Source of the DNA: Kiritimatiellia bacterium | GTDB taxonomy: Bacteria; Verrucomicrobiota; Kiritimatiellia; RFP12; UBA1067 | Length of the DNA stretch: 64,000 nt | NCBI GenBank assembly: GCA_033812795.1 | Contig: JAPXSY010000001.1 | Span: 2,282-66,281, forward strand | Direction of reading: 5' to 3' | Shown: positions 1 to 56,598 of the stretch, piece by piece | Layout: each line of letters begins with the position of its first letter | How positions within the stretch are numbered: the first letter of the stretch is position 1 | Made by a program: the position numbers and the translations under genes | Notes under the pieces: model-generated | The model's input: only the letters and a program-made list of their open reading frames with translations | What the model was told of the DNA's origin: nothing | Database searches by the model: none

Positions 1-3000
1 GCATCTTCCCCAGATTGATCGCCTTCTGCAGCGCGAACTGCATCGGTTGCTGCTGACGCTTCATGGCGTAGAGGGTCGCCATGTCCAGCCACGCCTGCCA
101 GTCGTTCGGCCGCAACTGGAGATAGCGTGAGAGCGGCGCGGCCATTTTATCCGCGTTCCCCGCCTCCCCGTACACCCGGACCACCTCCAGCAACTGCTCG
201 GGCGGCATATTCTCCGGCATGCGCGCCATCACGATATCCATGGCCTTGCAAGCGCTTTCCCCCCGCTTCAGACCACTGAGCAGCGAACCGATCTCAAACA
301 TCCGCGTCACCGGCAGATTGGGAACAGTCATGAGTTGCTCCAAATACTTCGCGGCCGCATCGTTCTGCCCGAGGTCCCGATACGCGAGCGCCAGTTCGAA
401 CACTTCGTCCGGTTGCAGGGTTTGGCTCTGCTGCATCTTGGTGGTCAGGGCGCGCACTTTCGCCTCGGTGTTCAGAATCCGCCGGATGAAATCCACAAAC
501 CCGTACCCGCGTTCGTTGTTGGGGTCACGCCGGTTGTACTCTTCCAGAATCCGGATCGACTCGACGTACCGCGCCTGGGGCAACAGGACTTCCTGCACCA
601 AGCGGAAATTGGCCTCGGGACTGACCGGATAGAGCGTGCGCGCCTCCTGAAAGGCCCGCTCCGCCTCGGCGCGCAGGCCGTGCGCGGCATACAGGCCCGC
701 AATGGCGCTACGCAGTTTGGAGAACGATTTCTGGCCGGGCAGATCGCGCCGGAACAATGGATTACGCAACAGCCTCCGCACATACCAATCCCAGAAATCC
801 AGATCAGCCCGCACCGTCTCCGCAGGAATGGCCTGACGCTCAGGGTTGATCTTCAGGATGAGACCGTGGGGCGTCATGAACGGAAACATCCAGTTGATCA
901 CATAACTCTCCTCCACGTAAAACGCGTGGCGCGCTTTGTTTTTCGCGAAGATCATGTCGCACAGGATCCCGTTGATCTCCATCACGCCCAAGGCGCCGCT
1001 CACCTGCACCCGGCCGTTTTCAATCGTCAAGGCCGCATTCTTGGGACGCTTACCGGCCTGCACCTCATCCACGTAAACCTGAAAGGCGCGCGCGCTGTCG
1101 TCTGGCGTGGGGATCCAGATTTGGTTCCCATAGAGATCGCGCATGGTCGACATGTAGGTGTTGTCAGCCAAGGCGTTCTGCGTGATCAAAAACACGTCCG
1201 GCCGTACCTGGGCCGAGTAAATCATGTATGTCGGCACAAACCGGCCGGGATCCGTACCGCCGAAAAAGATCGCGTTGGGCTCCATCGCAGGTGGAAACAG
1301 CGGATTCGGCAGCGGCTCCTCGTCCGCCTCCAACTCCTCGGTGATCGCCTCCGCACCGCGCAACTGGTAGTTGCCGAACTGCCAACCGAAGTCGTGCCCG
1401 TTCTGCTCCGCACCGCTCATGGAGAAAACCAGATACGCGTTGGTGTAGTTCTCGTAGATCGGAATCGCGGCCAAAAGCACACCCGCACACACCAGACCGA
1501 TGCGCAACGGCTTCAGCAGACGGGCATTGAGCCAGCCGAGCCGCACCAGCCACTTCAGAATGCGATTGCCGAAGGTCAGTCCGAACGCCAGACCGTAGCC
1601 GATCCAAATCGCGAACAGCCCGTGCGAACTGATGAACTTGACCTTCTGGATAAAGGCGTCCTGCAAATCGCCCTTGATGTTCGCCAGCACCACCAGAAGC
1701 ACACTCATGACCAGAAACCCCGCTGCGGTCGCGATCATCCACTGCTGGGTCACCTGATCCATGTCGGAACGGAAATCAAAACGCTTTTCCGCAAAGGAAC
1801 GGAAGAAAAACCAGCCCGCCCCGCAGGCGGCAAGGATCACCAGCGCCAGCGCCAGCGAAGCCAGCCGGACCCCGATGCCGGGATCGCCCGTGCCGGAAAG
1901 CGCATGGGTCAGGCCTTTGGCGAGAAAAAGCGCGATCACCGCCAGCATCCCGCACAGCGAGATCCCCACAGTCAGCCCTTCAGAGAGGTTGCGCGCCTGC
2001 CAGGTGCGTTTCACAAACGCTTCCACCTGCGTGAGCACCACGGTCGCCCCCCCCACCACCAGCAGAAACAGGATCAGTCCGATCAGCAGCTTGTCGAGAC
2101 GCCAGAGCGGTTCACCGCCGGCAAACTCGGAGATCAGCACCAGCACGCAGGTCAACAGGTACAGGCCGCTGGCGACATACCCTGCGCGGATGCGCCGTTT
2201 CCCGACCCGGAAACTCCAAAGCGTAAAGGGCAAAAAGCCCAGCGTGGCGGCGATCAGCGTGAACTGCACACGCAAGTCGGTGAAGTAGGTGCCGAGTTGG
2301 AAGAGGAACTTTTTGGTGAACACATCGGACGGGGCAAGTTTTTCGTACTGACCGCGGGTGATGGCGTGTTTGAAACCTTCCCACGTACGCGGGTATCCCC
2401 AGTTCATCGGCGGGTTACGCAGATCCGAAACGATCGGCATGTAGATGTAGAAGGAGACCCCCAACTCCGCGAACAGCGTGGTCACAGCCACCGCCCGCCC
2501 GTTGGGAAGCAGTTGCCAGGCCAGCCCAATCACCACGAAATTCCAGATCACCGGCCACCAGAACCACCAGGAGGTCGGATGGGTCAGTCCGTTCATGCCG
2601 CCTTTGCGCAACAGCACAAACACGGCCAGTTGCACCGCCGCCACCGGCAGGGCGTAGAAGATGCCGCGCGGCAGCGTGACCGCCAGCAGAAACAGGACAA
2701 CCAATCCTCCTGCCAGCACCAGAGTCGGCAATGACCAGTTATACGGCTGCCCCATGTATCCGGCGGGCATCGCCGCGCCCCGGATGGCAGAGAGCCGGAA
2801 AAACAACAACAAAAGCGATACGCCTGCGGCGATCAGCCACGGCAGGGTTTCCCGCTCGCCCCACCGGCTTTTAAAGACATACGCGCCGCCTAAACTGAAG
2901 GCCAGCACCAGTACGGCCAACGCAGCCACGCTGGTGTACACACTGGGATCGAACAGCGGCGCATCGGTTGCCGCGACCTCCTTCATCCGGGTCGTCGCGG

Positions 3001-4030
3001 TGGAAAAGAAAATCAGCAGCGCACCCAGAATCGTCACGCCCGCCGTGATCCATGCGCCTTGAAGAGCCAGCGCATCCAGCCGCCCCCCCTTGCCGGTTCC
3101 GGGCTCGCGCTTGCTCACCGCGTTTCGGTGCCAAGATAACCCGTGGCCCACCGCCAACCCCAGCAACACACAGACGCAACCCGCAACCAGCAGACCCGGA
3201 GACGGCACGGAAACTTTCGAAAGCGGCTCCGCTTTAGCAAACGCGGGGCCGCCCATACCGGGCGAGGCCGGCACCATCGCTCCGATCTGCAACAGATGGG
3301 AGGTCAACAGCATGGGGATGCCCACCAGAAGAAAATCGCGGAACAGTGCGATGTCACGCAGGAAAATCATCACCACCAGCGGCAGGGCCGCCAGCAGCAG
3401 CACCTGATAATTCGTCAGCCCCAAGCCGAACACGAAAGCCGTCAGCCACAAGGTTTTTTCCGCCGGGCACCGCATCCAGCGATAGGTCAGCAGAAAGATC
3501 CACATGAGGAAAAAAGCGTTGAGGGTGTACACCTCCACGATCGTGGCCTGCGACCACATCACCGGGCTGAACGCGAAAACCAGACTGCCGCCCACACCGC
3601 CGGCCCAGCAGAGCAGGTCACTCTCCTGCTGTCTGAAATCCTCCTCGCCCTCGTGCGCGTCCCGCATCATGTCGGAAGCCGAACGCGTGATCAGCATTGC
3701 CGTGATGCCGGCCGCCAACGCGGCGAACACCGCAGACATGAGCGAAATGCTCCAGGCCGGTGTCGGCTGTCCCCGGAACGTGACCCAACTGAAAACCCGG
3801 GCGAACAGATAGGCGCACATCGTCCAGATGGGATAACCGGGCGGATGCGGCACACCCAGATGATCCCCGGCCACCGCCAACTCGCCCGAATCCTCCAGTG
3901 TGACGGAGGGTCCCAGCGTAAAAAAGTAGACGAGGAAAGAGATTATCGTGGCGGTCCAGAAAGCGGTCCAGTCGATCCGCCGGAAAAAAGCAAGATTGGG
4001 GCCAGAGCCCGAAAACCGGTTTTTCATCAT
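1..4030 (-). CDS. DUF2723-like polytopic membrane protein (putative glycosyltransferase-type) with C-terminal TPR repeats; 3' end lies beyond the window start
   Basis: Manual minus-strand translation from ATG at 4030 (MMKNRFSGSGPNLAFFRRIDWTAFW...) stays open to position 1 (more than 1340 codons). It shows many hydrophobic TM segments, then TPR-like helices (YRDLGQNDAAAKYLEQL, AEAERAFQEARTLYP). It is missing from the ORF track because no stop falls inside the window. The + ORF 335..2734 is its antisense shadow. Confidence 0.7.
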   Translation of the reverse strand, partial: MMKNRFSGSGPNLAFFRRIDWTAFWTATIISFLVYFFTLGPSVTLEDSGELAVAGDHLGVPHPPGYPIWTMCAYLFARVFSWVTFRGQPTPAWSISLMSAVFAALAAGITAMLITRSASDMMRDAHEGEEDFRQQESDLLCWAGGVGGSLVFAFSPVMWSQATIVEVYTLNAFFLMWIFLLTYRWMRCPAEKTLWLTAFVFGLGLTNYQVLLLAALPLVVMIFLRDIALFRDFLLVGIPMLLTSHLLQIGAMVPASPGMGGPAFAKAEPLSKVSVPSPGLLVAGCVCVLLGLAVGHGLSWHRNAVSKREPGTGKGGRLDALALQGAWITAGVTILGALLIFFSTATTRMKEVAATDAPLFDPSVYTSVAALAVLVLAFSLGGAYVFKSRWGERETLPWLIAAGVSLLLLFFRLSAIRGAAMPAGYMGQPYNWSLPTLVLAGGLVVLFLLAVTLPRGIFYALPVAAVQLAVFVLLRKGGMNGLTHPTSWWFWWPVIWNFVVIGLAWQLLPNGRAVAVTTLFAELGVSFYIYMPIVSDLRNPPMNWGYPRTWEGFKHAITRGQYEKLAPSDVFTKKFLFQLGTYFTDLRVQFTLIAATLGFLPFTLWSFRVGKRRIRAGYVASGLYLLTCVLVLISEFAGGEPLWRLDKLLIGLILFLLVVGGATVVLTQVEAFVKRTWQARNLSEGLTVGISLCGMLAVIALFLAKGLTHALSGTGDPGIGVRLASLALALVILAACGAGWFFFRSFAEKRFDFRSDMDQVTQQWMIATAAGFLVMSVLLVVLANIKGDLQDAFIQKVKFISSHGLFAIWIGYGLAFGLTFGNRILKWLVRLGWLNARLLKPLRIGLVCAGVLLAAIPIYENYTNAYLVFSMSGAEQNGHDFGWQFGNYQLRGAEAITEELEADEEPLPNPLFPPAMEPNAIFFGGTDPGRFVPTYMIYSAQVRPDVFLITQNALADNTYMSTMRDLYGNQIWIPTPDDSARAFQVYVDEVQAGKRPKNAALTIENGRVQVSGALGVMEINGILCDMIFAKNKARHAFYVEESYVINWMFPFMTPHGLILKINPERQAIPAETVRADLDFWDWYVRRLLRNPLFRRDLPGQKSFSKLRSAIAGLYAAHGLRAEAERAFQEARTLYPVSPEANFRLVQEVLLPQARYVESIRILEEYNRRDPNNERGYGFVDFIRRILNTEAKVRALTTKMQQSQTLQPDEVFELALAYRDLGQNDAAAKYLEQLMTVPNLPVTRMFEIGSLLSGLKRGESACKAMDIVMARMPENMPPEQLLEVVRVYGEAGNADKMAAPLSRYLQLRPNDWQAWLDMATLYAMKRQQQPMQFALQKAINLGKM

Positions 4031-4215
4031 AACGACAACTCACGCTTGTAAAGAAGACACTTAATTTACAATCCTTGCCTCTCACCGGCAAGGACAACTT
4101 TCCGTTTATACGCGCCACGAGGAGGGAACACGGCTTGAACAACCGGGGCGGCTGTGTTACGTTGGGCACATCCGTTCCCGGACCGGACAGCCCCGGCGGG
4201 ACAGAGGGAGCGCTC

Positions 4216-13607: not shown

Positions 13608-13749
13608 GATGACTCCGCTTTTGAACAGTGAAAGTGGGGCTCAGTATACCACATCAGCCGAAAAAAAAACACCTTTTCCCGAATCGGATCCTGTGGTATT
13701 TTACGGTATGTGAGAAGCGATTGAACCCTTTGTTGAGGAGCAAACCGAA

Positions 13750-18752: not shown

Positions 18753-20003
18753 TTAGATGGACCAGGGAGCGCGGTTTGAACGGTGGATGAGGCGGTTGGC
18801 CTCGGCATCGTTGACAAACGCAAGCGCGGCGGGATCAAAGGTGAGTTCGCGCTTCAAGTGATAAGCGATCGTGGCGGCATGGCAGGCAACGTGCGTGATG
18901 TGCAGCGCGTCGGCCGGTGCGGTCGGCGTTTGGCGCGACCTGACGCAGGCGATGAACTCGGCCGGATGGGCCACCGGACGCATCCAGCTTTCGGATTGGA
19001 TGGCGCGGGTGTCCAGCAGGGTTGGCGAGGAGACTTGGATGTCACCCGAGTCGTCAGTCTCGACCCAACCCTCATCGCCCTCGAAGCGCACGGCGCACGA
19101 GTTACGGAAACCTTTCTGACGCATCACCACCTGGATGCCGTCGGCATACCAGGCATGTACGGTGGTGTCGTCAATCGGCTTGTAGCGGACCGGCGTGGTG
19201 TGTTCGCGGTTGAGCGCCATCTGGCAGAGGTCGAGGGTATGGCTGCCCCATTCGGTGAGCTCGCCGTGGTAGTCGTATTCGCCGCCCCAGTGCTTGAGGT
19301 AAGCGTTGTTGTAGGGGCGCCAAGGGGCAGGGCCGAGCCACATGTCCCAGTCGATCTCGTCGACCGGCGGCATTTTCTCTTCGGGCAGAAAGTGGTTGGT
19401 CGCCGAGCGTCCCATACCCGCTGCCATACCGGCGTGTAACGTGTGGATGCGTCCGAGGCGTCCGCTCTTGACCAGTGACATGGCGGTCATGAAATTGCCG
19501 ACGGTGCGGCGCTGTACTCCGCCTTGATACACGCGGTGGTAGCGCGCGGCTGCCTTCACGACGGCCTCGCCCTCGTGGATGGAGAGCGAGATCGGCTTTT
19601 CGCAGTAGACGTCCTTACCGGCCTGCATGGAGCAGATCGCGAGGCGCGCATGCCAGCGGTCACCGGTCGCGATGTAGAGGGCGTCGATGTCCTTACGTGC
19701 GAGAAGATCACGGAAGTCGCGGTAGGCCGTGCAGTCTGTGTTGCCGTTAAAGGTGTCGACCGTGGCCTTGGCGCGTTCGCGCCGTTCGCGCACCGCATCG
19801 CAGACCGCAAGCATACGGGTGCCGGGCTGGTTCAGGAAAACCGGCAGCATTTGCTTGGTACGGCTGCCGCAGCCGATGACACCCATCGTGACGGTGGCCG
19901 ACGGTGCAGTCGGATTTGCACGCGCGACAGCGGTGCCGGCGACGGTGGTGAACGCAGCGGCGCGTAACAAAAATCCGCGCCGGTTGATTGAAGAACGCAA
20001 CAT
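18753..20003 (-). CDS. Gfo/Idh/MocA family oxidoreductase with Tat signal
   Basis: NRRGFLLRAAAFTTVAG Tat signal and Rossmann motif MGVIGCGSRTKQ; a paralog of 4900..6150. Confidence 0.85.
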   Translation of the reverse strand: MLRSSINRRGFLLRAAAFTTVAGTAVARANPTAPSATVTMGVIGCGSRTKQMLPVFLNQPGTRMLAVCDAVRERRERAKATVDTFNGNTDCTAYRDFRDLLARKDIDALYIATGDRWHARLAICSMQAGKDVYCEKPISLSIHEGEAVVKAAARYHRVYQGGVQRRTVGNFMTAMSLVKSGRLGRIHTLHAGMAAGMGRSATNHFLPEEKMPPVDEIDWDMWLGPAPWRPYNNAYLKHWGGEYDYHGELTEWGSHTLDLCQMALNREHTTPVRYKPIDDTTVHAWYADGIQVVMRQKGFRNSCAVRFEGDEGWVETDDSGDIQVSSPTLLDTRAIQSESWMRPVAHPAEFIACVRSRQTPTAPADALHITHVACHAATIAYHLKRELTFDPAALAFVNDAEANRLIHRSNRAPWSI

Positions 20004-20095
20004 ACAGAATCTCCCTTTGTGAAAACAGTATAGAGGAGATGGGACTCAGGGTCTAATAAAACAACGATCGAAATGTGTATCCGTCCGAATGGCGC

Positions 20096-20920
20096 CTAAA
20101 ATCGACAGCCGAGCCCAAGTCCGAAAATCGGATACGTTGTCTTGGCCATTGGCACATCTCTTGCGTTGATGAGTTCGCGCGCCTGCTTGTTGTAAAGCAC
20201 ATAGTGCCGATAACGCCCCCAGAGGTACCAGCTCTCTGTAAACCGCCATTCCGTCAACACCCCCATTACCGCAAACATAAACGAACCGCCAAGAAAATGA
20301 TGATCCGGGCCCTTGCCGTAGTTGCTTCTAAACCTGTTGACGTCACCCCATGTCGTTTCGGCATACGGCGTGACCGTGAATGAGTCCGCCGGCTTGAAAG
20401 GTTTCCGCAAGCCGAAACACATACGCCCATTGGTGGTCGGTGTGACGCATCCAAGGCCGATCCAATACGGTGTAACCCATGGATTGTGCCAATACTGACG
20501 GGCATACCAGGCAATGGGCGTGCGCGGCTTCTCTTCATAGCCCCCATACCAATCCCATAGAATACCGCCGTCTGTAGACACCTTCAACGTCTCTGCAAGT
20601 TTGACGTCATACCCATACAGCAGTGTCCCCTCATAAATATAGAAAGCGCGGCGATGTTTATGATCCGTTTGATCGTTCAGCGCACTGCATATCCAAGCAC
20701 TGCTGGAGAGGCGACCGTAATTCCGCGACTGCACCGTAAGAGACGCGTATTGTTCCGCCACGGGACGTGTATAGGTGAGCGACCCGCCGGAAGAGAGATA
20801 GGCGGATTCAAAATACGCCCTTACATTGACGTGAACGTCAAACTCTTCCGCATGAACATTCGACGTAAACGTGACGAGAACCGCTCCGTAAACAGCGACG
20901 CCTAGCCAACGACGGCCCAT
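20096..20920 (-). CDS. Hypothetical outer-membrane beta-barrel-like protein
   Basis: Signal peptide MGRRWLGVAVYGAVLVTFTSNVHA; aromatic-rich alternating pattern; C-terminal residue Phe. Lies in a visibly lower-GC stretch. Confidence 0.5.
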   Translation of the reverse strand: MGRRWLGVAVYGAVLVTFTSNVHAEEFDVHVNVRAYFESAYLSSGGSLTYTRPVAEQYASLTVQSRNYGRLSSSAWICSALNDQTDHKHRRAFYIYEGTLLYGYDVKLAETLKVSTDGGILWDWYGGYEEKPRTPIAWYARQYWHNPWVTPYWIGLGCVTPTTNGRMCFGLRKPFKPADSFTVTPYAETTWGDVNRFRSNYGKGPDHHFLGGSFMFAVMGVLTEWRFTESWYLWGRYRHYVLYNKQARELINARDVPMAKTTYPIFGLGLGCRF

Positions 20921-21001
20921 ATTGATCTTCTGTGTCGCACAGGAAATCACTCCCGAAAGTCCGCTTAAAAAACGTTGGCCCCGGAGCCGTCCGCCTCTAA
21001 C

Positions 21002-21346
21002 CTACAGGCGCATGAAAAAACCAAGACGCTTAACCGCGCGACTTCGGAACCATCGAGACACCATACACCACCCTGCGGCAGAATGCAAACGGCAGTTGAA
21101 CAGGCAGAATTCGAGAGCAAAATGTGCCCCGTCGAAGCACACCGCCTGCAGCGAGAGTCCCGCCGTGTCGTTGTTGACCGTGATCGGCGTATCGCCCGGG
21201 TTTCGGATGATCACGACATTGCCGCTCATCGGCTTCGCGTTACCCTGCCAATTCGCCGGATTGGACCAGTTGCCATTGCCAGACGTCCACACGCGCGTTT
21301 CGGCGAACAGCGAACACGCCAAAAGCGCCGCGCTGTCACATGCCAC
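21002..21346 (-). pseudogene. Remnant of a beta-helix surface-protein gene (N-terminal motif only)
   Basis: The 114-aa ORF contains WTSGNGNWSNPANWQGNAKP, the same N-terminal motif as the 41243..43267 protein (NYTGATDGDLATDTNWSGGAKP), then degenerates; no full-length partner ORF. Confidence 0.35.
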
Positions 21347-21398
21347 TGTGCGCTACAACGACGCACTCGTGTTGCGCTCGTATCGATGACGCACGTGC

Positions 21399-22256
21399 TC
21401 ATCTATAATCCGTAATGTCTTTGAACAGGCCTTCGCTATACTCGTAAAACCGGATTTGGATTCGAGGGGGATTCTTCTTCGGATCAGCCCTCCAGCCATG
21501 CATGTTTCCCCCCATGGCATTCACCGTAAAGAACACCGGGATTTCACGCCTGGAAACGCTTTTCGGCACAAGACCAAACCCTTCACTCAGACACAACCCG
21601 GAGTGTTTGCGGAGGGTTCCGATCATCTTTAAATCGAATGTCACACGTGACGATCCTCCATAATGACCGAGGATGATTTCCTTCCCATCCGTACCCATTG
21701 TCTGAACGCCATATACGACTGAATACCCCAATTGCAGCGTCTTTTCCTCCTTTGGATTCAGATTCAAGTCAAATGTGCGAATGCAGCAATTGCTGTGCGC
21801 GACTTTACCGAATCGATCTGGGCCCGCATACAATGTGTCACCTACGACCAACGCACCGTCGAGGGAGTCGTCGACCGCACGTTCGTATAACGGATCCAAA
21901 TCTTCGTTCCAGACACGTATGAGGCCTTTGCTGCCATATTTTTTGCGAATCTCTTTTCCCCGGAGTGCAAAGGCTCCGAATATCTTTCCGTCCGCATAAG
22001 CGATGTCCCCAAGATGCGCCGGGACGGTGATGTGCTTTTTGTGAACCCCGTTCCAGTCAAAGCTGTCAATGCCCAATTGATGGCTCAGGTAAAACCCCTT
22101 CTCGGAGCAGCAAGCACCTTGGATGTGCCCCGACTCGATCAGGCAGTCCAGATCATGGGGATGCGTCTCGATCACGGGTAACTTCTCTCCGGCCCGGACA
22201 GTCAGTCCAAGCAAAAAGAGGATGAGACAACCCTGTAACACGGTTCTGCTGTTCAT
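21399..22256 (-). CDS. Secreted hypothetical protein
   Basis: Signal peptide MNSRTVLQGCLILFLLGLTVRA; protein-like composition over 285 aa; lower-GC region; no family recognised. Confidence 0.6.
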   Translation of the reverse strand: MNSRTVLQGCLILFLLGLTVRAGEKLPVIETHPHDLDCLIESGHIQGACCSEKGFYLSHQLGIDSFDWNGVHKKHITVPAHLGDIAYADGKIFGAFALRGKEIRKKYGSKGLIRVWNEDLDPLYERAVDDSLDGALVVGDTLYAGPDRFGKVAHSNCCIRTFDLNLNPKEEKTLQLGYSVVYGVQTMGTDGKEIILGHYGGSSRVTFDLKMIGTLRKHSGLCLSEGFGLVPKSVSRREIPVFFTVNAMGGNMHGWRADPKKNPPRIQIRFYEYSEGLFKDITDYR

Positions 22257-22477
22257 GAATACCCCCTACCCGCTTCCAGATATCATGTAAAACGGATGTG
22301 CCATAATCTTTCAGCCCTATTTAAAAATAATCACGCTCATTACCATTCAGACAAGACACTGCCATCCATAGGGTAAATCGGAAACACATCCGTTTACATA
22401 ATCCGCAACCATTATGCGGGGAGAGGGCAAAAAGAGTCAACCCCTGAAGTCCGCGAAAACGTTTAGGATTGGGTTGG

Positions 22478-22519
22478 GGCTGAAATGGACTTTTTCTGGT
22501 TTCTGGAATGTGTTACAGT
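22478..22519 (+). promoter_or_regulatory. Conserved 42-bp upstream motif, copy 1 (GGCTGAAATGGACTTTTTCTGGTTTCTGGAATGTGTTACAGT)
   Basis: 40 of 42 nt identical to 54982..55023; both copies end 38-39 nt before the start codon of a secreted enzyme gene. Confidence 0.55.
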
Positions 22520-22558
22520 TTTTTCAATTTGGGTAAACCAGTTGTGTGAAAGAAAGGA

Positions 22559-25147
22559 ATGAACGTTCCAATGAAGAATTCTTGTTTCTCATTCGCGTGT
22601 TGCTGCGTTACCTGTCGAGGGGTGCGGGCGGCGGTCATCGTATGGATGTCGCTTGTGGCGACCGTGACAGTCCACGCGTCCGCCTTCGAAAACATCCTGC
22701 ATAACCCCGAACTGCGCCGCGATAAAAGCGGATATGCCTTTGACTGGAATTTCACCTACGAAGGCTTGGAGGATTCGCTGCGGTTCGGAGATGAAGACGG
22801 AATCGGTACAGCCACGCTGCTACCCAGCAAGTTGAGCACGTGCGGGGTGCGTCAGGTCGACATACGTCTCAAATGCGGCGGGAAATACAAAATCGGCGCT
22901 CTGGTACGCACGAAGAACTGCACGTGCACGCAGGGCGGGATCATCATCTATAATCGGGCATGGGTGAAGTCGGAAGGCGTCAGACCCTTCCCGCGAGATA
23001 CAGACGGAAAATGGGTACGGCTCGAGAAAGAGATCACGGCCCCCGAGTCCCGCGGCGGAATGTACGTGTTCACGGTTTACGCTTCAAATCTGACCGAAGG
23101 AGAAATCTCTTTCCGTGAACCCTATCTCATCGCGCTTGATGCCGAGTCCGACGCGGAAGTGGTGCGCCCCCCTAAGCTTTCCGAACTCAGGGCGATCACG
23201 CCGATTACACCGCTTCTCGGGAAGTTGCCGGAAGGCGACGCGACCGTCACGTTCTCCTTCCTCGACGAAATCGAAAAGGATGTCTGCAAGGTCGCGCTTA
23301 AAACGGAAGGCGACGGCGATTTCTGCGAAATCGGCAGTTTCCCGATCATCGGCGGGCTCATCAAGGCAAAGCTCCCCGACCTCAAACCCGGTCGCGGCTC
23401 CATCCGGGTCGCGGTTTGCGACAAGTCGGGCGTGGAGGTGGCCGCGAACGAATATCCGGTTCGCGTGTTGGCACGGGCGGAAACTCCGCCTGAGGGGCGC
23501 AGACTTAACGAGCTTGTAACCCGCATCCTGACTGCGGAGTCGAAAGACGGGGAATTCCGTTTTCAGGCTCCGCGCGACGGATGGATCTGGATCTCGCTCG
23601 AGCGCGGCAACGAGGGAACGACAGTGACGCTTGATGACGGGACAGAGCCGGTCATTATCCACCGCGAAAACGAACGCTACGAAACCATGCGTCACGTGAA
23701 GAGCGGCGAACATGTCCTCAGCGTCAAAGGTGCGACAGGCGGAAGCCTCGTCGTGAATTCGATTCCGATGATCGCGGGATTTACCGTGCCGATCCGATTC
23801 TTCAAGGATTATTACGAGGTTTTCGGCGGCAAATTCTGCCGCGAGCGGATTTTTCCCGTGATCAACACCTTCAGCATAGGCTATCCACTGAGGGTAATCG
23901 GCGAGGATGAACTCGCCGACCTCAAATCGCGCGGCAAGGAGCTGCTCGGACAGATCTGCCCCTGGAACCCGAAGCAACATCCCGAATGCGACGGAACCCG
24001 TACCGAACCCGCAGATCATCTCACGAAGCGGATGAGAAACAGCAATGGGATGACATCGCCGGAAATGAGCGGCACGACTTTCGACGAGATCTACGCGGAC
24101 GACGTCCTGCCGAAACTTGTGTTTTCGGAAGTGCTCAGGAATCTCGCGACCGCGCAGCGTCCGGTCTACATCTGGAGCGCTGGCTATACCTACGCCTTTA
24201 ATGCGCTTAACCGTGAGTTCCTGTCAGCCGTAGCCAATGCCTGCGACGGTAACGGCAAGCTCAATTTCGAGTGTTATCCCTGGACGAAACCGACCGAAGC
24301 GGAGGCTGTGGCACATATCGAGGAAATGCTGGTCGATTCGATGATCCGCGCCAACCGGCTGATGCCCGGATACGTGAATTCTTCCTGTTATCATCTGGGA
24401 GCGTACTCTCTCCCCGGCCGCATGAGCTACGATCATTATTTCTATGCCGATTACCGCTGGCTCGTCGACCGCTACTGGCGGACGCTGGCGACGAATCCGC
24501 TTTTCCGCGGTCTCGCCGGTATCGGGCTCTACGCTTATATTTACGCGTCTGAGGAGGATGTCCGCTGGCTGCTCGCGACTATCCGCCACTACGCGATCGA
24601 GGGGCGTACCGATTCGCTGGCTGATCGCTATGGCTTTGGCTATATCCTTCCGCATCTCAAGAACGCCGATTTCGCGTCCGGACTCGACGGCTGGCGCGTT
24701 TCCGAAGGTGAACCGGGTTGTGTGATCGCCTGTCAGCGCAAGAACTTTGCCCGTGGCGTGCTCAGATACCACGATTCCAAGGGGGAGTCGACGTGCGTGC
24801 TGAAACGCTCGGCGAAGGAGGCGAACACGATCGCACGGGAGATCGAGAATCTCGTTCCCGGCAGGCTTTATACACTCAGGTACGCCGTCCACAACACGAA
24901 CGGCGTGTTCGATGTCGCGGTGACACTCTCGGGAGCAACGGATGTAACTGCGACGACAGAAGTGGCGGCGAACGGTCAGACCTCAGTCGTGACGAAGGAT
25001 CTTGATGTGCGTACCCTCGTCTTCCGTGCCGAGCATGAGAAGGCGACGTTCTCGCTTACCGACTGGCTCGACGAGAAGGTACCGAAACGCGGTATCGGCG
25101 AGGAGACGCTGTTCGGCGCCATCCGTGTCAGACCGTATTACGAATGA
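22559..25147 (+). CDS. Large secreted hypothetical protein (putative carbohydrate-active enzyme; family not recognised)
   Basis: 862-aa ORF with a hydrophobic signal region (AAVIVWMSLVATVTVHASA); AGGA SD before ATG 22559; shares its upstream motif with the GH5 gene at 55062. Confidence 0.75.
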   Translation: MNVPMKNSCFSFACCCVTCRGVRAAVIVWMSLVATVTVHASAFENILHNPELRRDKSGYAFDWNFTYEGLEDSLRFGDEDGIGTATLLPSKLSTCGVRQVDIRLKCGGKYKIGALVRTKNCTCTQGGIIIYNRAWVKSEGVRPFPRDTDGKWVRLEKEITAPESRGGMYVFTVYASNLTEGEISFREPYLIALDAESDAEVVRPPKLSELRAITPITPLLGKLPEGDATVTFSFLDEIEKDVCKVALKTEGDGDFCEIGSFPIIGGLIKAKLPDLKPGRGSIRVAVCDKSGVEVAANEYPVRVLARAETPPEGRRLNELVTRILTAESKDGEFRFQAPRDGWIWISLERGNEGTTVTLDDGTEPVIIHRENERYETMRHVKSGEHVLSVKGATGGSLVVNSIPMIAGFTVPIRFFKDYYEVFGGKFCRERIFPVINTFSIGYPLRVIGEDELADLKSRGKELLGQICPWNPKQHPECDGTRTEPADHLTKRMRNSNGMTSPEMSGTTFDEIYADDVLPKLVFSEVLRNLATAQRPVYIWSAGYTYAFNALNREFLSAVANACDGNGKLNFECYPWTKPTEAEAVAHIEEMLVDSMIRANRLMPGYVNSSCYHLGAYSLPGRMSYDHYFYADYRWLVDRYWRTLATNPLFRGLAGIGLYAYIYASEEDVRWLLATIRHYAIEGRTDSLADRYGFGYILPHLKNADFASGLDGWRVSEGEPGCVIACQRKNFARGVLRYHDSKGESTCVLKRSAKEANTIAREIENLVPGRLYTLRYAVHNTNGVFDVAVTLSGATDVTATTEVAANGQTSVVTKDLDVRTLVFRAEHEKATFSLTDWLDEKVPKRGIGEETLFGAIRVRPYYE

Positions 25148-25306
25148 ATTCAAGCCAAAAGGAGCAGTTGAACGGGTAGAATTCTGGCAAAGCTCCGTAA
25201 ACATTGGGTTTTGTCGCGGTCCCCGCCGCACCGTATTGAGATGCGGGCGGAGCCCGCAATCTCAAAGGCTGTGAGACTGTGAGGTGGTGGTATTCCGTGG
25301 TTAAAT

Positions 25307-25432
25307 GATCGATCCCGATCCCGATAGCGATCCCGACCCCGATTTGGATGAAACCTTGAAACCCTGAAACCATGAAACCAGAAACCCGATCCCGATTCCG
25401 ATAGCGATCCCGACCCCGATTTGGATGAAACC
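25307..25432. repeat. Direct repeat: two ~48-bp units (GATCCCGAT[A/T]CCGATAGCGATCCCGACCCCGATTTGGATGAAACC) separated by four TGAAACC-type heptamers
   Basis: Seen directly at 25307..25355 and 25385..25432; lies between convergent genes 22559..25147 (+) and 25503..29630 (-). Confidence 0.6.
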
Positions 25433-25502
25433 AAAGAAAGGTGAAGGTTCAACTGCTCTTTTTAGGTTTAAGCCACAAACAGGAATGCGAATACCTGTCT
25501 TT

Positions 25503-49931: not shown

Positions 49932-50897
49932 CTACTCCTGTCTAGCGTTCACGGATTCCGGTGCGAAGTCGTCGAGTTGGAACTTCCACTCGGGACGTGT
50001 ACGGAAGGGAGTCTTGAATGTTCTTTTCAGGACCCCCTTCTTCTCCAAATGGCAATAACATGCGACATCGCAGGCGCGTCCGCAGATTGAGCAGGTGTAG
50101 GAGTGCTGCGCCGGCGGATAAAAATAGATCGCGTCAAGGATCCGCTTCGCTTTCTCTGAATCGATCTCGGCCTCGCCCGCGATGATCGCAAGCCGGTCCT
50201 CGAAATCAGGGAAGGCCTCCGGCGGCATGAACGGATTCTTCGTGCCGTTCGCGCCGTTGTAATAGACGGCGCAACGCCACGGATCAACCTCGCCGGACTC
50301 TGGGTCAATACATTTGCCCGGACACCCCTTCACACATGCGCCGCACCTGTCGCAAAGATGCGGCGTCACCACCTGATCCGGCTCAAGTTCAGCATCCGTC
50401 AAGATGAAGCACGTCCGCTGCATCGGCCCGAAATCGTCCGTCAGGAGCGCACCGTGGAAGCCGCGTTCACCGAGTCCGCACCGCACCGCCGCATCCGTGA
50501 AGTCGAACTGCGGCTCCTCGACGCGTCCGCGCGCAATCGCGTCATAGGCGACTTCCGGGTTCATGCCATCCTCCGCCTCCATGATCGTCTGGTGGCGGCG
50601 TTGGGGCACGGCCGTGAAGCCCTTGGACTCGATCCGATTCGCCAGCCTCACAAGCGCGATCGGCATCACCGTCTCCTCCATGTTCTCGACGGACATCGTC
50701 GTATACTGGTAGTAGGTCGTTCCCTCCTCGGTACCGCGATAGCTACCGCGAAGGCACCGGAACGCCAAACCGATGACACTCTTCACCTGCGGATAGATCC
50801 TGAAAATCTTGTGATCCGCCGGGAACCGCGACGCAGGCGCGACGCCAACCAGATCCGCGCCGCATTCTTTAGCCAACTTCAGAAGTTCGTGCTTCAC
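49932..50897 (-). CDS. QueG/RdhA-superfamily Fe-S protein paralog 1 (epoxyqueuosine-reductase-like; two ferredoxin-type Cys motifs)
   Basis: N-terminus LKLAKECGADLVGVAPASRF resembles the QueG N-terminal region. Cys motifs are CDRCGACVKGCPGKC and CSICGRACDVACYC. It is 321 aa with no room for a C-terminal HEAT-like tRNA-binding region. Confidence 0.65.
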   Translation of the reverse strand: MKHELLKLAKECGADLVGVAPASRFPADHKIFRIYPQVKSVIGLAFRCLRGSYRGTEEGTTYYQYTTMSVENMEETVMPIALVRLANRIESKGFTAVPQRRHQTIMEAEDGMNPEVAYDAIARGRVEEPQFDFTDAAVRCGLGERGFHGALLTDDFGPMQRTCFILTDAELEPDQVVTPHLCDRCGACVKGCPGKCIDPESGEVDPWRCAVYYNGANGTKNPFMPPEAFPDFEDRLAIIAGEAEIDSEKAKRILDAIYFYPPAQHSYTCSICGRACDVACYCHLEKKGVLKRTFKTPFRTRPEWKFQLDDFAPESVNARQE

Positions 50898-51682: not shown

Positions 51683-51701
51683 CTTCCCTCACCTCAACCC
51701 G

Positions 51702-52787: not shown

Positions 52788-52788
52788 G

Positions 52789-53646: not shown

Positions 53647-53758
53647 GTGTCTATCTTACCGCAATTCATCGACGTTCATTTACACAAATGCGCATTATAT
53701 TTTGCACTAAAGCGAATATGCGATTGTGCCAAATCAGGAATTTTGGTTGAATGCGGGT

Positions 53759-54937
53759 ATGAAACGGGCCTCCGCTGCATCCGGTATACCCAGAGTTCTG
53801 GTGACCATTCCGACGGCGAATTTCACGCACCGGAAAGTTTTGGAGGGCATTCTCGACTACGCCCGAATCAAGGGGCCTTGGCAGTTTCACCTCAATACCG
53901 GAGACATCGCGGTACAGGACATGAAACGGGTCGATAACTGGAAGTGCTCCGGCATCATTGCCTTGTCCTCAAACAAGGCTGTGCTGAGACGGCTCGTGCG
54001 GTTCCGCAAGCCGACGGTTTTCATCAATCCGCCGGACGCGGGGAACGTCCCGCCGCGCGGCTGCGTATTCGTCCGGCGCGACGACCGCAACCTCGGACGT
54101 GTCGCGGCGGAATACTTCATCTCCGGCGGTTTCCGATCCTTCGCCTTTGTCGGTGCCAGCCGTCCGGCGGCTTGGTCAGATGATCGGCGGGACGGATTTA
54201 CAACTCGGCTCGCACAAGAAGGCTTCACCTGCATCGACTACGGCTCCGTCACGCCGGAAGAGAGCGCGGACGCCGCCATTGAAGCGCCGCGGCTTTTAAC
54301 ATGGCTCAAGACGCTCCCGCGTCAGACCGCACTTTTTACCGTAAAAGACATCCGCGGGCAGCAGATATTATCCGCGTGCCTCGACGCCTCAATCCGCGTT
54401 CCGGAGGATCTCGCCGTGCTCTCGACGGATAACGACCCAGTCCTCTGCGACACGGTATCGCCGCCTTTGTCGTCGATTTCCCTGGATGGCGAAAATACCG
54501 GAAAACTATGCGCCGGAATCCTCGACGACCTGCTCCATGGGAAAAAAGTCGAACCTGTCGTCAGCATCATGTGCCCACGCATCATCACACGCCGATCCTC
54601 CGATGTAACCGCCGTCGAAGATCCGCTCCTCGCACGGGCGCTTGATTATGTCCGCGCCCATCTTGACGAACCCTTCCGAATCGGTAAACTCGCAAGCGAG
54701 ACGGGGATTTCGGTTCGTACGATCCAACTCAGGGCGCGCAAACAGTTCGGGCACCCCTTCCGTGAGGAAATTCGTCGGTTGCGTCTTGCCAAGGCCATTT
54801 CGCTTCTTTCCAACACAGATCTTCCGGCCGCCGACATCGCAGCGATGTGCGGGTTCTGTAGCGGAAGCCATCTCTCACGCGCTGTAAAGGACGCCTTCGG
54901 ATACCCGCCAAGCACATTCCGGCCGAAACCGACATGA
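53759..54937 (+). CDS. XylR-type regulator: periplasmic-binding-protein-like sugar-binding domain fused to AraC HTH
   Basis: N-terminal LacI/PBP-type fold (RVLVTIPTANFTHRKVLEGILDYARIKG...). C-terminal AraC HTH (LASETGISVRTIQLRARKQFG...AAMCGFCSGSHLSRAVKDAFGYPPSTFR). It is transcribed divergently from the operon across a 112-bp AT-rich gap. ATG 53759 was preferred over the GTG 53726 of the track. Confidence 0.8.
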   Translation: MKRASAASGIPRVLVTIPTANFTHRKVLEGILDYARIKGPWQFHLNTGDIAVQDMKRVDNWKCSGIIALSSNKAVLRRLVRFRKPTVFINPPDAGNVPPRGCVFVRRDDRNLGRVAAEYFISGGFRSFAFVGASRPAAWSDDRRDGFTTRLAQEGFTCIDYGSVTPEESADAAIEAPRLLTWLKTLPRQTALFTVKDIRGQQILSACLDASIRVPEDLAVLSTDNDPVLCDTVSPPLSSISLDGENTGKLCAGILDDLLHGKKVEPVVSIMCPRIITRRSSDVTAVEDPLLARALDYVRAHLDEPFRIGKLASETGISVRTIQLRARKQFGHPFREEIRRLRLAKAISLLSNTDLPAADIAAMCGFCSGSHLSRAVKDAFGYPPSTFRPKPT

Positions 54938-54981
54938 CATCCCCGCAGCTCTTTGGTTTGGTAACAGTAGGGCTGATTTTT

Positions 54982-55023
54982 GGCTGAAATGGACTTCTTC
55001 CGGTTTCTGGAATGTGTTACAGT
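54982..55023 (+). promoter_or_regulatory. Conserved 42-bp upstream motif, copy 2 (GGCTGAAATGGACTTCTTCCGGTTTCTGGAATGTGTTACAGT)
   Basis: 40 of 42 nt identical to 22478..22519; ends 38 nt before ATG 55062. Confidence 0.55.
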
Positions 55024-55061
55024 GCCACGAGTTGCGGTATAACATGTGGCGAGAAGAAACA

Positions 55062-56549
55062 ATGAAACGTCATTTGATTGAATGTGGCTGGCTGGCGGCG
55101 CTGCTGTGCGGGATGGTTGCGGGCGCGCCGGTGGCCGTGAATGGCGCCGATGATTCCGGGCGTGCAGTTGCGAAGCTGATCGAGGTCTCGCGGAAGCATC
55201 CGCGCTACTTCGTCGAGGGCGCCACGGAGAAAACATGGATTCCGATCGGCTGCAACATCTGCTTTGCCCGGCTCAACGTCTCGGACGCCGAGGTGCGCGC
55301 GAACTTCGAACGCTGGCTGCGGCGCTTTGCCGCGAACGGCGGCAACTGCATCCGCCTCTGGGCCGGACACCGCTCGCTTGAGGTGATGCCCGAGAAGCCC
55401 GGCGTGTGGGACGCCGAGAAAACGAAGACGATGAAGGGCATCATCGCCCTCTGCGAGGAGCTCGGCATCAAGGTGAAGATCACCTTCGAGAGCTTCCGCA
55501 TGTGTCTCTCCCCCGAGGTGCAGGCGAAGACGGCGCAGCCGAAGGTGAACTTCGACTACAACGGCATCTTCAACCGTCCGCTCTACGCGCCGTACGCAAA
55601 GAACGTCGCCGAGTTCTTCCGTTCGCCGGAGTGCCGCGCGATCTACCTCCGCAAGGCGCAGTATTTCAAGGACCTTGGCTTCGCCGATTCGCCTGCGGTC
55701 TACTGTTGGGAACTCTGGAACGAGATCAACTGCTGCGGCTCGATCGCCCAGTATTCGGAATGGTCCGAGTGGGCGCTCGCCGAGTTGAAGCGGATGTTCC
55801 CGCGTCAACTCACGGTCAACAACCTCGGCAGCTTCTCTGACGTGGGTGCCTATCAGATGTATGACGCGCTCGCGCAGGAGAAGGGTAACGACTTCATGCA
55901 GATTCACCGCTACCTCGACGCAGGCGCCTGTCTTGATGCCTGCCGCGCGTCGATGGACGTGGTGGCCGCGAGCGCGACGCGCGAACTGCTCGACCGCTCG
56001 CCGAAGCCCGCGATCGTCGCCGAGATCGGCGCCGTCCAGGCGAACCACGCCGGCCCCTTCCCCTACTACCCCTTTGACAAGGAGGGCACGCTGCTGCACG
56101 ACGCCGTCTTCGCGGCGTTCTTCGCGGGTTCGGCGGGTTGCGGCCAGTTCTGGCACTGGGACCACCAGTACATCGATGGCAACAACCTCTGGTGGCATTT
56201 CGGGCGCTTTGCGAAGGCGATCGAGGGCCTTGACCCCGTCGCCGAAGAGATGAAGCCGTTCTACACGGAATCGCGGCGGTTACGGATGTACGGTCTGCGC
56301 GGGAAGAAGACGTCCATTGTCTGGTGCCGCGACAAGGTCAGCGACTGGCGGAGTGAACTCGTCGAGGGAAACCACGCACAGGTCCTCTCGGACCAGGACG
56401 TGCCGTTCCGGAACTGCGACCTCGACTGCTATCTGCCCTGGGAGGACCGCCGGGTCACGGTCAAGGCGCCGCGGTTGCCGGCGTTCCGTCGTTCGATCGT
56501 CGTCCGCGTGCCCTCCACAGCCGTCGAGGGCGTGGTCCGTCCGCACTGA
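55062..56549 (+). CDS. Secreted clan GH-A glycoside hydrolase, GH5-like (mannanase/cellulase-type)
   Basis: Signal peptide MKRHLIECGWLAALLCGMVAGAPVAVNG; acid/base motif YCWELWNEIN; nucleophile region near IVAEIGAVQ. The track ORF start 55014 lies inside the upstream motif and was rejected. Confidence 0.8.
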   Translation: MKRHLIECGWLAALLCGMVAGAPVAVNGADDSGRAVAKLIEVSRKHPRYFVEGATEKTWIPIGCNICFARLNVSDAEVRANFERWLRRFAANGGNCIRLWAGHRSLEVMPEKPGVWDAEKTKTMKGIIALCEELGIKVKITFESFRMCLSPEVQAKTAQPKVNFDYNGIFNRPLYAPYAKNVAEFFRSPECRAIYLRKAQYFKDLGFADSPAVYCWELWNEINCCGSIAQYSEWSEWALAELKRMFPRQLTVNNLGSFSDVGAYQMYDALAQEKGNDFMQIHRYLDAGACLDACRASMDVVAASATRELLDRSPKPAIVAEIGAVQANHAGPFPYYPFDKEGTLLHDAVFAAFFAGSAGCGQFWHWDHQYIDGNNLWWHFGRFAKAIEGLDPVAEEMKPFYTESRRLRMYGLRGKKTSIVWCRDKVSDWRSELVEGNHAQVLSDQDVPFRNCDLDCYLPWEDRRVTVKAPRLPAFRRSIVVRVPSTAVEGVVRPH

Positions 56550-56598
56550 GGAGTGAAATGAATCGAATCCAATCAGAGTCCTGCGCTATACTAATGGC

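What the first reader, a model, noticed from the sequence alone, without database searches (positions are those of the whole stretch)
22478..22519. 42-bp near-identical motif at a fixed distance upstream of two secreted-enzyme genes (second copy at 54982..55023)
The motif is GGCTGAAATGGACTT[T/C]TTC[T/C]GGTTTCTGGAATGTGTTACAGT. It occurs twice with 40 of 42 identities, 32 kb apart. Each copy ends 38-39 nt before the ATG of a signal-peptide protein: the 862-aa secreted protein at 22559 and the GH5-like hydrolase at 55062. Spacing and orientation are conserved, which argues for a shared cis-regulatory element such as a promoter for an alternative sigma factor, an operator, or a 5' leader. It does not resemble the canonical sigma70 -35/-10 consensus. 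The six-frame ORF at 55014 actually starts inside the motif.
Basis: seen in the sequence. Interest (0 to 1): 0.6.

Follow-up and report, generated by a model that had tools for sequence, protein, structure and literature searches.

The report
Promoter block shared by two genes
A 42-base block sits just upstream of two unrelated secreted carbohydrate-enzyme genes in an uncultured Kiritimatiellia bacterium; it most likely is one ordinary (extended -10) promoter copied to a second gene, a known way for bacteria to rewire gene expression.

Summary
The 42-mer occurs at 22478-22519 and 54982-55023, both on the + strand, with 40/42 identities. Shuffles give no such match, and the copies end 39 and 38 nt before the first ATG of two non-homologous genes.

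The claim that it does not resemble a sigma-70 promoter does not hold. The last nine bases, TGTTACAGT, fit the extended -10 pattern TGnTAnAnT. That pattern occurs six times in the window, and five of those are intergenic and face a gene, although only 7.6% of the window is intergenic. I found no sigma-54 spacing, no simple ECF pattern, no Rfam match and no significant RNA fold.

No third copy turned up in any data I could reach. The element is absent upstream of the closest orthologue of the GH5-like gene (95% aa). It is also absent downstream of the closest orthologue of the neighbouring XylR-type regulator (89% aa). Copy 2 lies in an 88-nt junction segment specific to this lineage. The regulator's own conserved operator looks different.

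My best reading is a self-contained promoter, possibly with an embedded operator, duplicated onto a second gene. It is a two-member "putative mobile promoter". Whether it defines a regulon could not be tested. Interest is low to moderate.

The parts
22478..22519 (+). 42-mer, copy 1 (GGCTGAAATGGACTTTTTCTGGTTTCTGGAATGTGTTACAGT)
   Evidence: It is identical (42/42) in two other metagenome contigs of the same species, L023 and L029.
54982..55023 (+). 42-mer, copy 2 (T>C at motif positions 16 and 20)
   Evidence: It is identical in L001-L005 and L040.
22511..22519 (+). Predicted extended -10 element TGTTACAGT (TGnTAnAnT), the last 9 nt of copy 1
   Evidence: The pattern occurs 6 times in the window and 5 of those are intergenic and gene-facing. 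Promoter function is inferred, not shown.
55015..55023 (+). Predicted extended -10 element TGTTACAGT, the last 9 nt of copy 2
22526..22526 (+). Predicted transcription start (an A, 7 nt after the -10), giving a leader of about 33 nt
   Evidence: Inference from the sequence. This A is the only base that matches between the two copies in the first 8 nt after the motif.
55030..55030 (+). Predicted transcription start (an A, 7 nt after the -10), giving a leader of about 32 nt. It is also the first base homologous to the L013 orthologue.
   Evidence: the BLASTN match to L013 starts at window 55030; inference
22532..22539 (+). GGTAAACC, a second and weaker -10-like box at the same offset from the 42-mer as in copy 2
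   Evidence: The pattern GGTAnAnC is only weakly enriched between genes (4 of 25).
55036..55043 (+). GGTATAAC, the ancestral -10 of the GH5-like gene (TGGTATAAC in the orthologue L013); the TG has been lost here
54942..55029 (.). Lineage-specific junction segment that holds copy 2. It has no counterpart downstream of the regulator orthologue or upstream of the GH5 orthologue.
   Evidence: Homology to L031/L032 ends at 54941 and homology to L013 begins at 55030.
22559..25147 (+). Gene downstream of copy 1: 862-aa putative secreted protein with a borderline CBM_4_9 domain, nearly an orphan
   Evidence: The only hits are its own 90% cluster and one homologue at 27% identity.
55062..56549 (+). Gene downstream of copy 2: 495-aa putative secreted GH5-like (clan GH-A) hydrolase
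53759..54937 (+). XylR-type regulator (Peripla_BP_3 + AraC HTH_18) ending 44 nt before copy 2. It is a candidate but unsupported binder.
   Evidence: (E. coli XylR 4FE4, E 1.4e-35, near full length)
53647..53758 (.). Divergent intergenic region with a footprint conserved across regulator orthologues (direct repeat CACAAATGCGnAT, period about 22 bp). This is the regulator's probable own operator and it is unlike the 42-mer.

Best explanation
The 42-mer is a compact sigma-70-type promoter that has been copied so that it drives two unrelated genes. Its last nine bases, TGTTACAGT, are an extended -10 element (TG, one base, TAnAnT). RNA polymerase would start about 7 nt downstream, at the A at 22526 and at 55030, giving leaders of 33 and 32 nt. 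That explains the 'fixed distance' to the ATG. The upstream 33 bp would span -48 to -16. They contain no good -35 hexamer, which extended -10 promoters do not need, and they may hold the site of an unidentified regulator that would co-regulate the two genes. The two copies arose by duplication of the promoter block alone, so this is promoter propagation onto a relocated or acquired gene. What is shown: the sequence match, the specificity of the -10 signature in this window, the sharp boundaries, and the lineage-specific junction position. What is inferred: promoter activity, the start site, any operator, and the copying mechanism.
For: (1) The two copies share 40/42 bases and occur at no other place in the window. 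Both are intergenic, both face a gene, and they end 39 and 38 nt from the ATG.
(2) TGnTAnAnT occurs 6 times on both strands of the 64 kb. Five of these are intergenic (7.6% of the window is intergenic) and all five face the next gene: gyrA at 13651, plus 48261, 58552 and the two motif copies. Leaving the motif copies out, 3 of 4 are intergenic, binomial p about 1.6e-3, my calculation from the counts.
(3) The conserved block ends exactly at the last T of this -10. The next identical base is an A seven nt downstream in both copies.
(4) Other predicted promoters in the window also show TGGTAnAnT boxes and no recognisable -35.
(5) The downstream genes are not homologous. The flanks are no more alike than those of some unrelated gene pairs: 3 of 595 pairs of gene 5' regions score 34 or more, this pair included. 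So only the promoter block was copied.
(6) Copy 2 sits in an 88-nt segment that neither the 89% regulator orthologue nor the 95% GH5 orthologue has.
(7) Two-member families of near-identical short upstream blocks before non-homologous genes are a documented class. Among putative mobile promoters, doublets are the commonest family size, with mean identity 92% and mean length 66 nt (PMC3488235).
Against: There is no transcript data, so the start site and promoter activity are inferred. The window offers only four independent TGnTAnAnT sites to calibrate the signature. A second -10-like box (GGTAAACC / GGTATAAC) lies at exactly the same offset after both copies (hexamer 14 nt downstream). That is unexpected if the 42-mer is self-sufficient, and it fits the rival geometry in which the 42-mer is an upstream element. 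The tool's strict sigma-70 scan did not flag either site, because the -35 is poor. Identity of 40/42 over the whole block is more than RNA polymerase contacts need. It reflects either a recent copy or an embedded operator, and I cannot tell which. No copying mechanism is visible: there are no terminal inverted repeats, no target duplication and no transposase.
Confidence: 0.55

Rival explanations
1. The 42-mer is an activator-dependent upstream element, a class II site. In this reading the real -10 is the box 14 nt downstream (TAAACC at 22534-22539, TATAAC at 55038-55043). The 42-mer then spans -68 to -27. GTTACA (motif positions 35-40) would serve as a -35 with a 16-nt spacer, and the rest would be the tandem binding site of an AraC/XylS-type dimer, possibly the XylR-type protein encoded just upstream of copy 2.
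For: The offset to a GGTAnAnC box is identical in both copies, although the flanks are otherwise unrelated. In copy 2 that box is the ancestral promoter of the gene, TGGTATAAC in L013. The span of -68 to -27 and the length of 42 bp are those of classical AraC-family sites (established knowledge of araI, XylS and RhaS sites). A XylR-type regulator gene ends 44 nt upstream of copy 2. CTGRAATG occurs twice, 23 bp apart, and the two variable positions fall between those units (read from the sequence).
Against: Both candidate -10 boxes lack the TG and the final T that mark promoters in this window, and GGTAnAnC is only 4/25 intergenic. The internal direct repeat is not significant (p = 0.14). The regulator's conserved partner is the divergent Fe-S/SSF operon, and its conserved footprint (the CACAAATGCGnAT repeat) does not resemble the 42-mer. 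Regulator orthologues at 89% and 82% identity lack the motif. No regulator gene lies near copy 1.
Confidence: 0.22
2. The block is a neutral scar with no regulatory role. It could be a remnant of a small mobile element or an IS end, a recombination junction, or attL/attR-like direct repeats flanking the 32.5-kb CAZyme-rich segment between the copies.
For: Copy 2 lies exactly at a synteny breakpoint. Copy 1 lies in a low-GC stretch (0.53-0.55) next to a gene remnant and an orphan gene. The copies are direct repeats 32,504 bp apart. The termini CTGAAAT...GTTACAG are weakly inverted, 5 of 7 (read from the sequence).
Against: Pfam found no integrase, transposase or recombinase in any of the ORFs scanned across the window; several have no Pfam match. 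There is no significant inverted repeat and no target-site duplication. Only two copies exist. The exact-18-mer scans found none in the viral contigs, and elsewhere only chance hits and the source organism's own copy-1 locus. Both copies are intergenic, in the same orientation towards a gene, and at the same distance from the ATG within 1 nt, which a neutral scar would not predict. The block's 3' edge coincides with a promoter signature.
Confidence: 0.12
3. The 42-mer is a promoter for an alternative sigma factor (ECF or sigma-54), or a transcribed 5' leader or RNA element.
For: TGGAAT and TGAAAT loosely resemble ECF -35 boxes (GGAAC / TGAAAC; my own knowledge). No terminator separates the regulator gene from copy 2, so the motif could be transcribed there. 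The predicted hairpin gains a G-C pair from the T>C change at position 20.
Against: There is no GG-N10-GC and no GAA[CT]-N15-19-CGT in either copy with its downstream flank. Pfam found no ECF sigma gene among the ORFs scanned in the window. Rfam finds nothing at gathering score in the window or at E <= 10 around copy 1. Fold z-scores are +0.54, -0.79, +0.10 and -0.69, so not significant.
Confidence: 0.08

Closest known systems
Putative mobile promoters (PMPs; Matus-Garcia, Nijveen & van Passel 2012, Nucleic Acids Res 40:10032, PMC3488235)
   Same: A highly similar non-coding block lies within 150 nt upstream of non-homologous genes in one genome. Two-member families are the commonest size, with mean identity 92%. 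The block is not an Rfam family, and no IS gene was found nearby. The block is associated with rewired or relocated genes.
   Different: The block is 42 nt long, below the 50-nt cut-off of that survey. It ends about 38 nt before the start codon, not close to it. Its mobility is inferred from one lineage-specific junction, not from many copies.
Extended -10 (TGn) sigma-70 promoters, e.g. E. coli galP1 and the -16 TRTG region of Gram-positive promoters
   Same: A TG lies one base upstream of a TAnnnT hexamer. The -35 is poor or absent. The element sits at a short, fixed distance upstream of the coding sequence.
   Different: Here a further 33 bp upstream are conserved almost perfectly between the two copies, far more than RNA polymerase needs. 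No promoter has been mapped experimentally in Kiritimatiellia (literature searches).
AraC/XylS-family activator sites, including E. coli XylR at xylA/xylF
   Same: The element is about 40 bp long and adjoins the core promoter. A full-length XylR homologue is encoded next to copy 2. The target genes are carbohydrate-active.
   Different: There are no significant half-site repeats. The regulator's conserved footprint elsewhere is different. The motif does not travel with regulator orthologues.
IS-borne outward -35 / hybrid promoters and MITE-borne promoters
   Same: A short block placed just upstream of a gene's native -10 at a rearrangement junction.
   Different: There is no IS, no transposase, no inverted repeat, no target duplication and no multi-copy family.

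Membership tests
Extended -10 sigma-70 promoter | TG one base upstream of a -10 hexamer with T(-12), A(-11), T(-7) | tested here: met
   TGTTACAGT at 22511-22519 and 55015-55023
Extended -10 sigma-70 promoter | The signature predicts promoters in this organism (intergenic, gene-facing) | tested here: met
   5 of 6 TGnTAnAnT sites are intergenic against a 7.6% background, and all five face a gene; 3 of 4 when the motif copies are excluded. The sample is small.
Extended -10 sigma-70 promoter | Transcription starts 5-9 nt downstream of the hexamer | not testable with these tools
   Needs 5' RACE or dRNA-seq. An A lies 7 nt downstream in both copies.
Putative mobile promoter (PMC3488235) | Homologous non-coding sequence within 150 nt upstream of the start codons of two or more genes in one genome | tested here: met
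Putative mobile promoter (PMC3488235) | The downstream coding sequences are not homologous | tested here: met
   BLASTP best E 1.1
Putative mobile promoter (PMC3488235) | Alignment of at least 50 nt at 80% identity or more | tested here: not met
   The strict local alignment stops at 42 nt with 95% identity. The flank similarity is not distinguishable from that of unrelated gene pairs.
AraC/XylR-type operator | Two direct-repeat half-sites about 21 bp apart next to the -35 | tested here: inconclusive
   CTGRAATG matches 7/8 at a 23-bp period, but the best internal direct repeat has p = 0.14 against shuffles.
AraC/XylR-type operator | The site resembles the neighbouring regulator's conserved operator | tested here: not met
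   The footprint in the divergent region conserved across orthologues is the CACAAATGCGnAT direct repeat. It shares only a TGTGT / AAATG core with the 42-mer.
AraC/XylR-type operator | The site co-occurs with regulator orthologues | tested here: not met
   The loci of the 89%, 82% and 64% orthologues (L031-L035) have no match of 25/42 or more, or of 15-16/21 or more.
Sigma-54 promoter | GG at -24 and GC at -12, that is GG-N10-GC | tested here: not met
   No match in either copy with its downstream flank
ECF sigma promoter | GAAC-like -35 followed 16-17 nt later by a CGT-like -10, usually with a cognate ECF sigma gene nearby | tested here: not met
   No GAA[CT]-N15-19-CGT. Pfam found no ECF sigma gene among the ORFs scanned in the window. 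ECF consensus sequences vary, so this is a weak exclusion.
IS / MITE / dispersed repeat | Many copies on both strands, inside and outside genes; terminal inverted repeats; target-site duplication | tested here: not met
   There are two copies only in the window, in about 12 kb of extra flank and in all related loci. The genome, metagenome and viral scans gave only chance hits or the same locus. Best inverted 8-mer is 5/8, p = 0.96. The whole source genome was not available.
attL/attR of an integrated element | Direct repeats flanking a segment that encodes an integrase or recombinase, often at a tRNA gene | tested here: not met
   No integrase family in any ORF between the copies. tRNA genes were not scanned.
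Cis-regulatory RNA (riboswitch or leader) | A match to a known family, or a stable conserved structure | tested here: not met
   Rfam gives 0 hits. Fold z-scores are between -0.8 and +0.5.

The most novel reading that the evidence does not exclude
The 42-mer could be a portable promoter-plus-operator cassette that this Kiritimatiellia lineage copies onto newly relocated or newly acquired carbohydrate-active genes by an unknown mechanism that needs no transposase. That would plug those genes into one pre-existing regulatory circuit. If so, it would be an active route of regulon growth in genomes where single genes change context constantly; the GH5-like gene has a different neighbourhood in every relative examined.
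Probability: 0.15. Interest if true: 0.5.

Novelty: new member of a known kind. Interest (0 to 1): 0.25.

Why it matters
If the reading is right, it gives a first concrete promoter model for an uncultured Kiritimatiellia: an extended -10 of the form TGnTAnAnT with no recognisable -35. It also gives a clean example of promoter reuse, in which one 42-bp block wires an orphan CBM-bearing protein and a relocated GH5-like hydrolase to the same control. That helps with annotating transcription units and predicting co-expression of polysaccharide-degrading genes in this poorly studied PVC group. It does not reveal a new kind of mechanism.

Tried and rejected
- **More copies.** A genome-contig scan with the invariant 18-mer gave 6 chance hits (Cocleimonas, Flavivirga, Chloroflexia and others), and the source species is not in that collection. 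A metagenome-contig scan gave only the copy-1 locus twice plus chance hits, and the known copy-2 contigs were not in that collection, so sensitivity is limited. Two viral scans gave nothing. Extending the window by 6.7 kb to the right and 5.1 kb to the left gave nothing.
- **Footprinting upstream of GH5-like orthologues.** Relatives at 95% and 72-77% identity sit in different contexts and none has the motif.
- **Footprinting upstream of 862-aa orthologues.** This was impossible: only one homologue exists, at 27% identity, and its upstream region is unrelated.
- **Extended homology of the flanks.** It looked significant against shuffles (p 0.0025). The control with 595 pairs of gene 5' regions shows that unrelated pairs score as high, so I rejected it as evidence of a longer duplication.
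- **Internal half-site structure.** Not significant.
- **Coding potential across the motif.** The frame is open in both copies, but it stops before the gene in copy 1, and the T>C change at position 16 is non-synonymous. Rejected.
- **Strain variation as a test of constraint.** The 302-nt intergenic region has no SNPs at all, so this is uninformative.
- **Literature on Kiritimatiellota promoters or regulators.** Nothing relevant.

Full report
**Observation.** The 42-mer GGCTGAAATGGACTT[T/C]TTC[T/C]GGTTTCTGGAATGTGTTACAGT is present at 22478-22519 and 54982-55023, on the + strand both times, with 40/42 identities. None of 100 dinucleotide-preserving shuffles produced such a match. Searching each half separately, and running an identity scan on both strands, found no weaker third copy in the 64 kb. 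The copies end 39 and 38 nt before the first ATG of ORFs 22559-25147 and 55062-56549. The ORF 55014-56549 does begin at a GTG inside copy 2.

**Context.** The window comes from an uncultured Kiritimatiellia bacterium seen in several anaerobic-digester metagenomes, where contigs match it at 99.3-100% identity.
- The two downstream proteins are unrelated (BLASTP E > 1).
- The 495-aa protein is a clan GH-A, GH5-like enzyme. The evidence is a sub-threshold Pfam Cellulase hit, PF00150 in some homologues, and PDB matches to a DUF5060 protein and weakly to GH5 mannanases.
- The 862-aa protein has a borderline CBM_4_9 domain and is nearly an orphan. Among 5.8 billion proteins, only its own cluster and one homologue at 27% identity were found.
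- Both N-termini look like signal peptides by eye.
- Copy 2 lies 44 nt after the stop codon of a XylR-type regulator with Peripla_BP_3 and AraC HTH domains. That protein matches E. coli XylR (4FE4) at E 1.4e-35 over nearly its full length.
- The 32.5 kb between the copies encodes GH43/GH42, a GH97_N-domain protein, DUF5696 and CBM proteins, a sodium:solute symporter and Fe-S proteins. Pfam found no integrase or transposase in any ORF scanned.

**What the element looks like.** In this window the 9-mer pattern TGnTAnAnT, an extended -10, occurs six times counting both strands.
- Five of the six are intergenic, although only 7.6% of the window is intergenic. All five point at the next gene: gyrA (13651), 48261, 58552 and the two motif copies.
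- The motif's last nine bases, TGTTACAGT, match every specified position of the pattern.
- Leaving the motif copies out, 3 of the 4 remaining sites are intergenic (binomial p about 1.6e-3, my calculation from those counts).
- Visual inspection of upstream regions shows the same TGGTAnAnT boxes and no recognisable -35.
- The conserved block ends exactly at the final T of this -10. The only identical base in the next eight positions is an A seven nt downstream (22526 and 55030), which is the expected position of a start site.

On this reading the block spans -48 to -7, which is the extent of a complete promoter, and the 'fixed distance' to the ATG is a 32-33-nt leader. The strict TTGACA/TATAAT scan did not flag the sites because the -35 is poor.

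**Alternatives to a housekeeping promoter.** Neither copy with its flank contains GG-N10-GC (sigma-54) or GAA[CT]-N15-19-CGT (a simple ECF pattern). Rfam gives nothing at gathering score for the window, or at E <= 10 around copy 1. Predicted RNA folds are no better than shuffles, with z between -0.8 and +0.5. Internal repeats (CTGRAATG twice, TTCTGG twice) are not significant, with p = 0.14, and there is no inverted repeat.

**Evolution.** The element does not travel with either neighbouring gene.
- The closest orthologue of the GH5-like gene (95% aa, 92% nt; L013) lies after clpX. It keeps the native -10 (TGGTATAAC) and the ribosome-binding region but lacks the 42-mer. Nucleotide homology to the window covers only 55030-56551.
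- More distant orthologues sit in a different context in each genome and also lack it.
- The closest orthologues of the regulator (89% and 82% aa) keep the divergent 285-aa/Fe-S/SSF operon. Their homology ends at 54941, just after the stop codon.

Hence 54942-55029, which contains copy 2, is a junction segment specific to this lineage. The regulator's conserved footprint in its divergent promoter is a direct repeat of CACAAATGCGnAT, which does not resemble the 42-mer. Copy 1 lies in a low-GC stretch next to a gene remnant and the orphan gene.

The flanks of the two copies at first looked weakly similar (p 0.0025 against shuffles). A control with 595 pairs of gene 5' regions gave equal or higher scores for unrelated genes. 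That similarity therefore reflects generic features of translation starts, and only the 42 bp were copied.

**Copy number.**
- The exact 18-mer scan of 596 Gb of genomes returned six chance hits, and the source species is absent from that collection.
- The metagenome scan returned only the copy-1 locus twice plus chance hits.
- Viral contigs gave nothing.
- About 12 kb of extra flanking sequence gave nothing.

The metagenome collection lacks the contigs known to carry copy 2, so its sensitivity is limited. Roughly one hit was seen per known copy and none for unknown copies. That argues against a high-copy repeat but not against a few more sites.

**Interpretation.** I commit to the following as most likely (about 0.55). 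The 42-mer is a self-contained extended -10 promoter, possibly with an embedded operator in its upstream 33 bp. It has been duplicated so that two unrelated secreted carbohydrate-active genes share one transcriptional control.

This is the phenomenon described as promoter propagation, or putative mobile promoters. Two-member families of short, roughly 92%-identical upstream blocks before non-homologous genes are its commonest form (PMC3488235). The present block is shorter than that survey's 50-nt cut-off, so it is the same kind of thing but not a formal member.

The main rival (about 0.22) places the functional -10 at the GGTAAACC / GGTATAAC box, which lies at an identical offset after both copies, and treats the 42-mer as a -68 to -27 activator site, perhaps for an AraC/XylR-type protein. 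The shared offset is real and remains unexplained under my preferred reading. Against the rival, those boxes lack the features that mark promoters here, and the link to the adjacent regulator failed every test I could run. Tandem promoters would reconcile the two readings.

A neutral scar or mobile-element remnant (about 0.12), and an alternative-sigma or RNA element (about 0.08), are less likely for the reasons given above.

**Verdict.** The element is most likely an ordinary sigma-70-type promoter block reused at a second gene, so it is a new member of a known kind. Whether it defines a larger regulon, and how a sharply bounded 42-bp block was copied, cannot be settled without the whole genome and transcript 5' ends.

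Noticed in passing
window 25148-25502; L043 2467-3335: The convergent gap after the 862-aa gene holds a non-coding repeat block. A 46-nt unit occurs twice (25310-25355 and 25387-25432), separated by tandem 8-nt (T/C/A)TGAAACC units. A 99.3%-identical strain (L023) differs here by unit insertions of 16 nt and 8 nt. Copies at 81-90% identity lie 2-2.6 kb beyond the left end of the window. This is a small dispersed, length-variable intergenic repeat family with no Rfam match.
   Followed up: partly
window 20951-21398 (and GC dip 20000-24000): This non-coding stretch carries 6 of the 20 substitutions and 2 of the 4 indels that separate two strains over 6.6 kb. It contains an ORF remnant (21002-21346, minus strand) with a WTSGNGNWSNPANW-type motif. 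GC falls to 0.53-0.55 here, against about 0.61 elsewhere. It looks like a decaying or recently acquired region next to copy 1.
   Followed up: partly
window 53647-53664 (minus strand) and 56581-56601: Two -10-like boxes lie exactly 6 nt before an ATG: TAAGAT-agacac-ATG for the operon starting at 53646, and TATACT-aatggc-ATG for the HtrA-like gene at 56599. This suggests leaderless mRNAs in this organism.
   Followed up: no
window 53647-53758: The divergent region between the XylR-type regulator and the 285-aa/Fe-S/SSF operon carries a direct repeat CACAAATGCGnAT (period about 22 bp). It is conserved in orthologues at 89% and 82% identity and is probably the regulator's real operator.
   Followed up: partly
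window 55030-56551; L006, L009, L010, L013, L014: The GH5-like gene has a different genomic neighbourhood in every relative examined. Homology to the 92%-nt relative stops at both gene borders, so the gene behaves as a single-gene unit that relocates with its own -10.
   Followed up: partly
window 49932-53646 (minus strand): An operon, conserved together with the regulator, encodes three proteins distantly similar to QueG / reductive-dehalogenase Fe-S proteins, a 285-aa protein with no family match, and next to them a sodium:solute symporter. Its function is unknown.
   Followed up: no
L036 7930-8000: Upstream of the only distant homologue (27%) of the 862-aa protein, in another organism, there is a triple tandem TTGAATCC(C/T) followed by TTACAAT just before the called ATG. 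This is a different repeat-type upstream element.
   Followed up: no
window 2-4039 (minus strand): The long + strand ORFs 335-2734 and 3143-4051 are shadow ORFs. The real gene is a TMEM260_N/TPR protein of at least 1346 aa on the minus strand that runs off the left end of the window (1384 aa in L043).
   Followed up: yes
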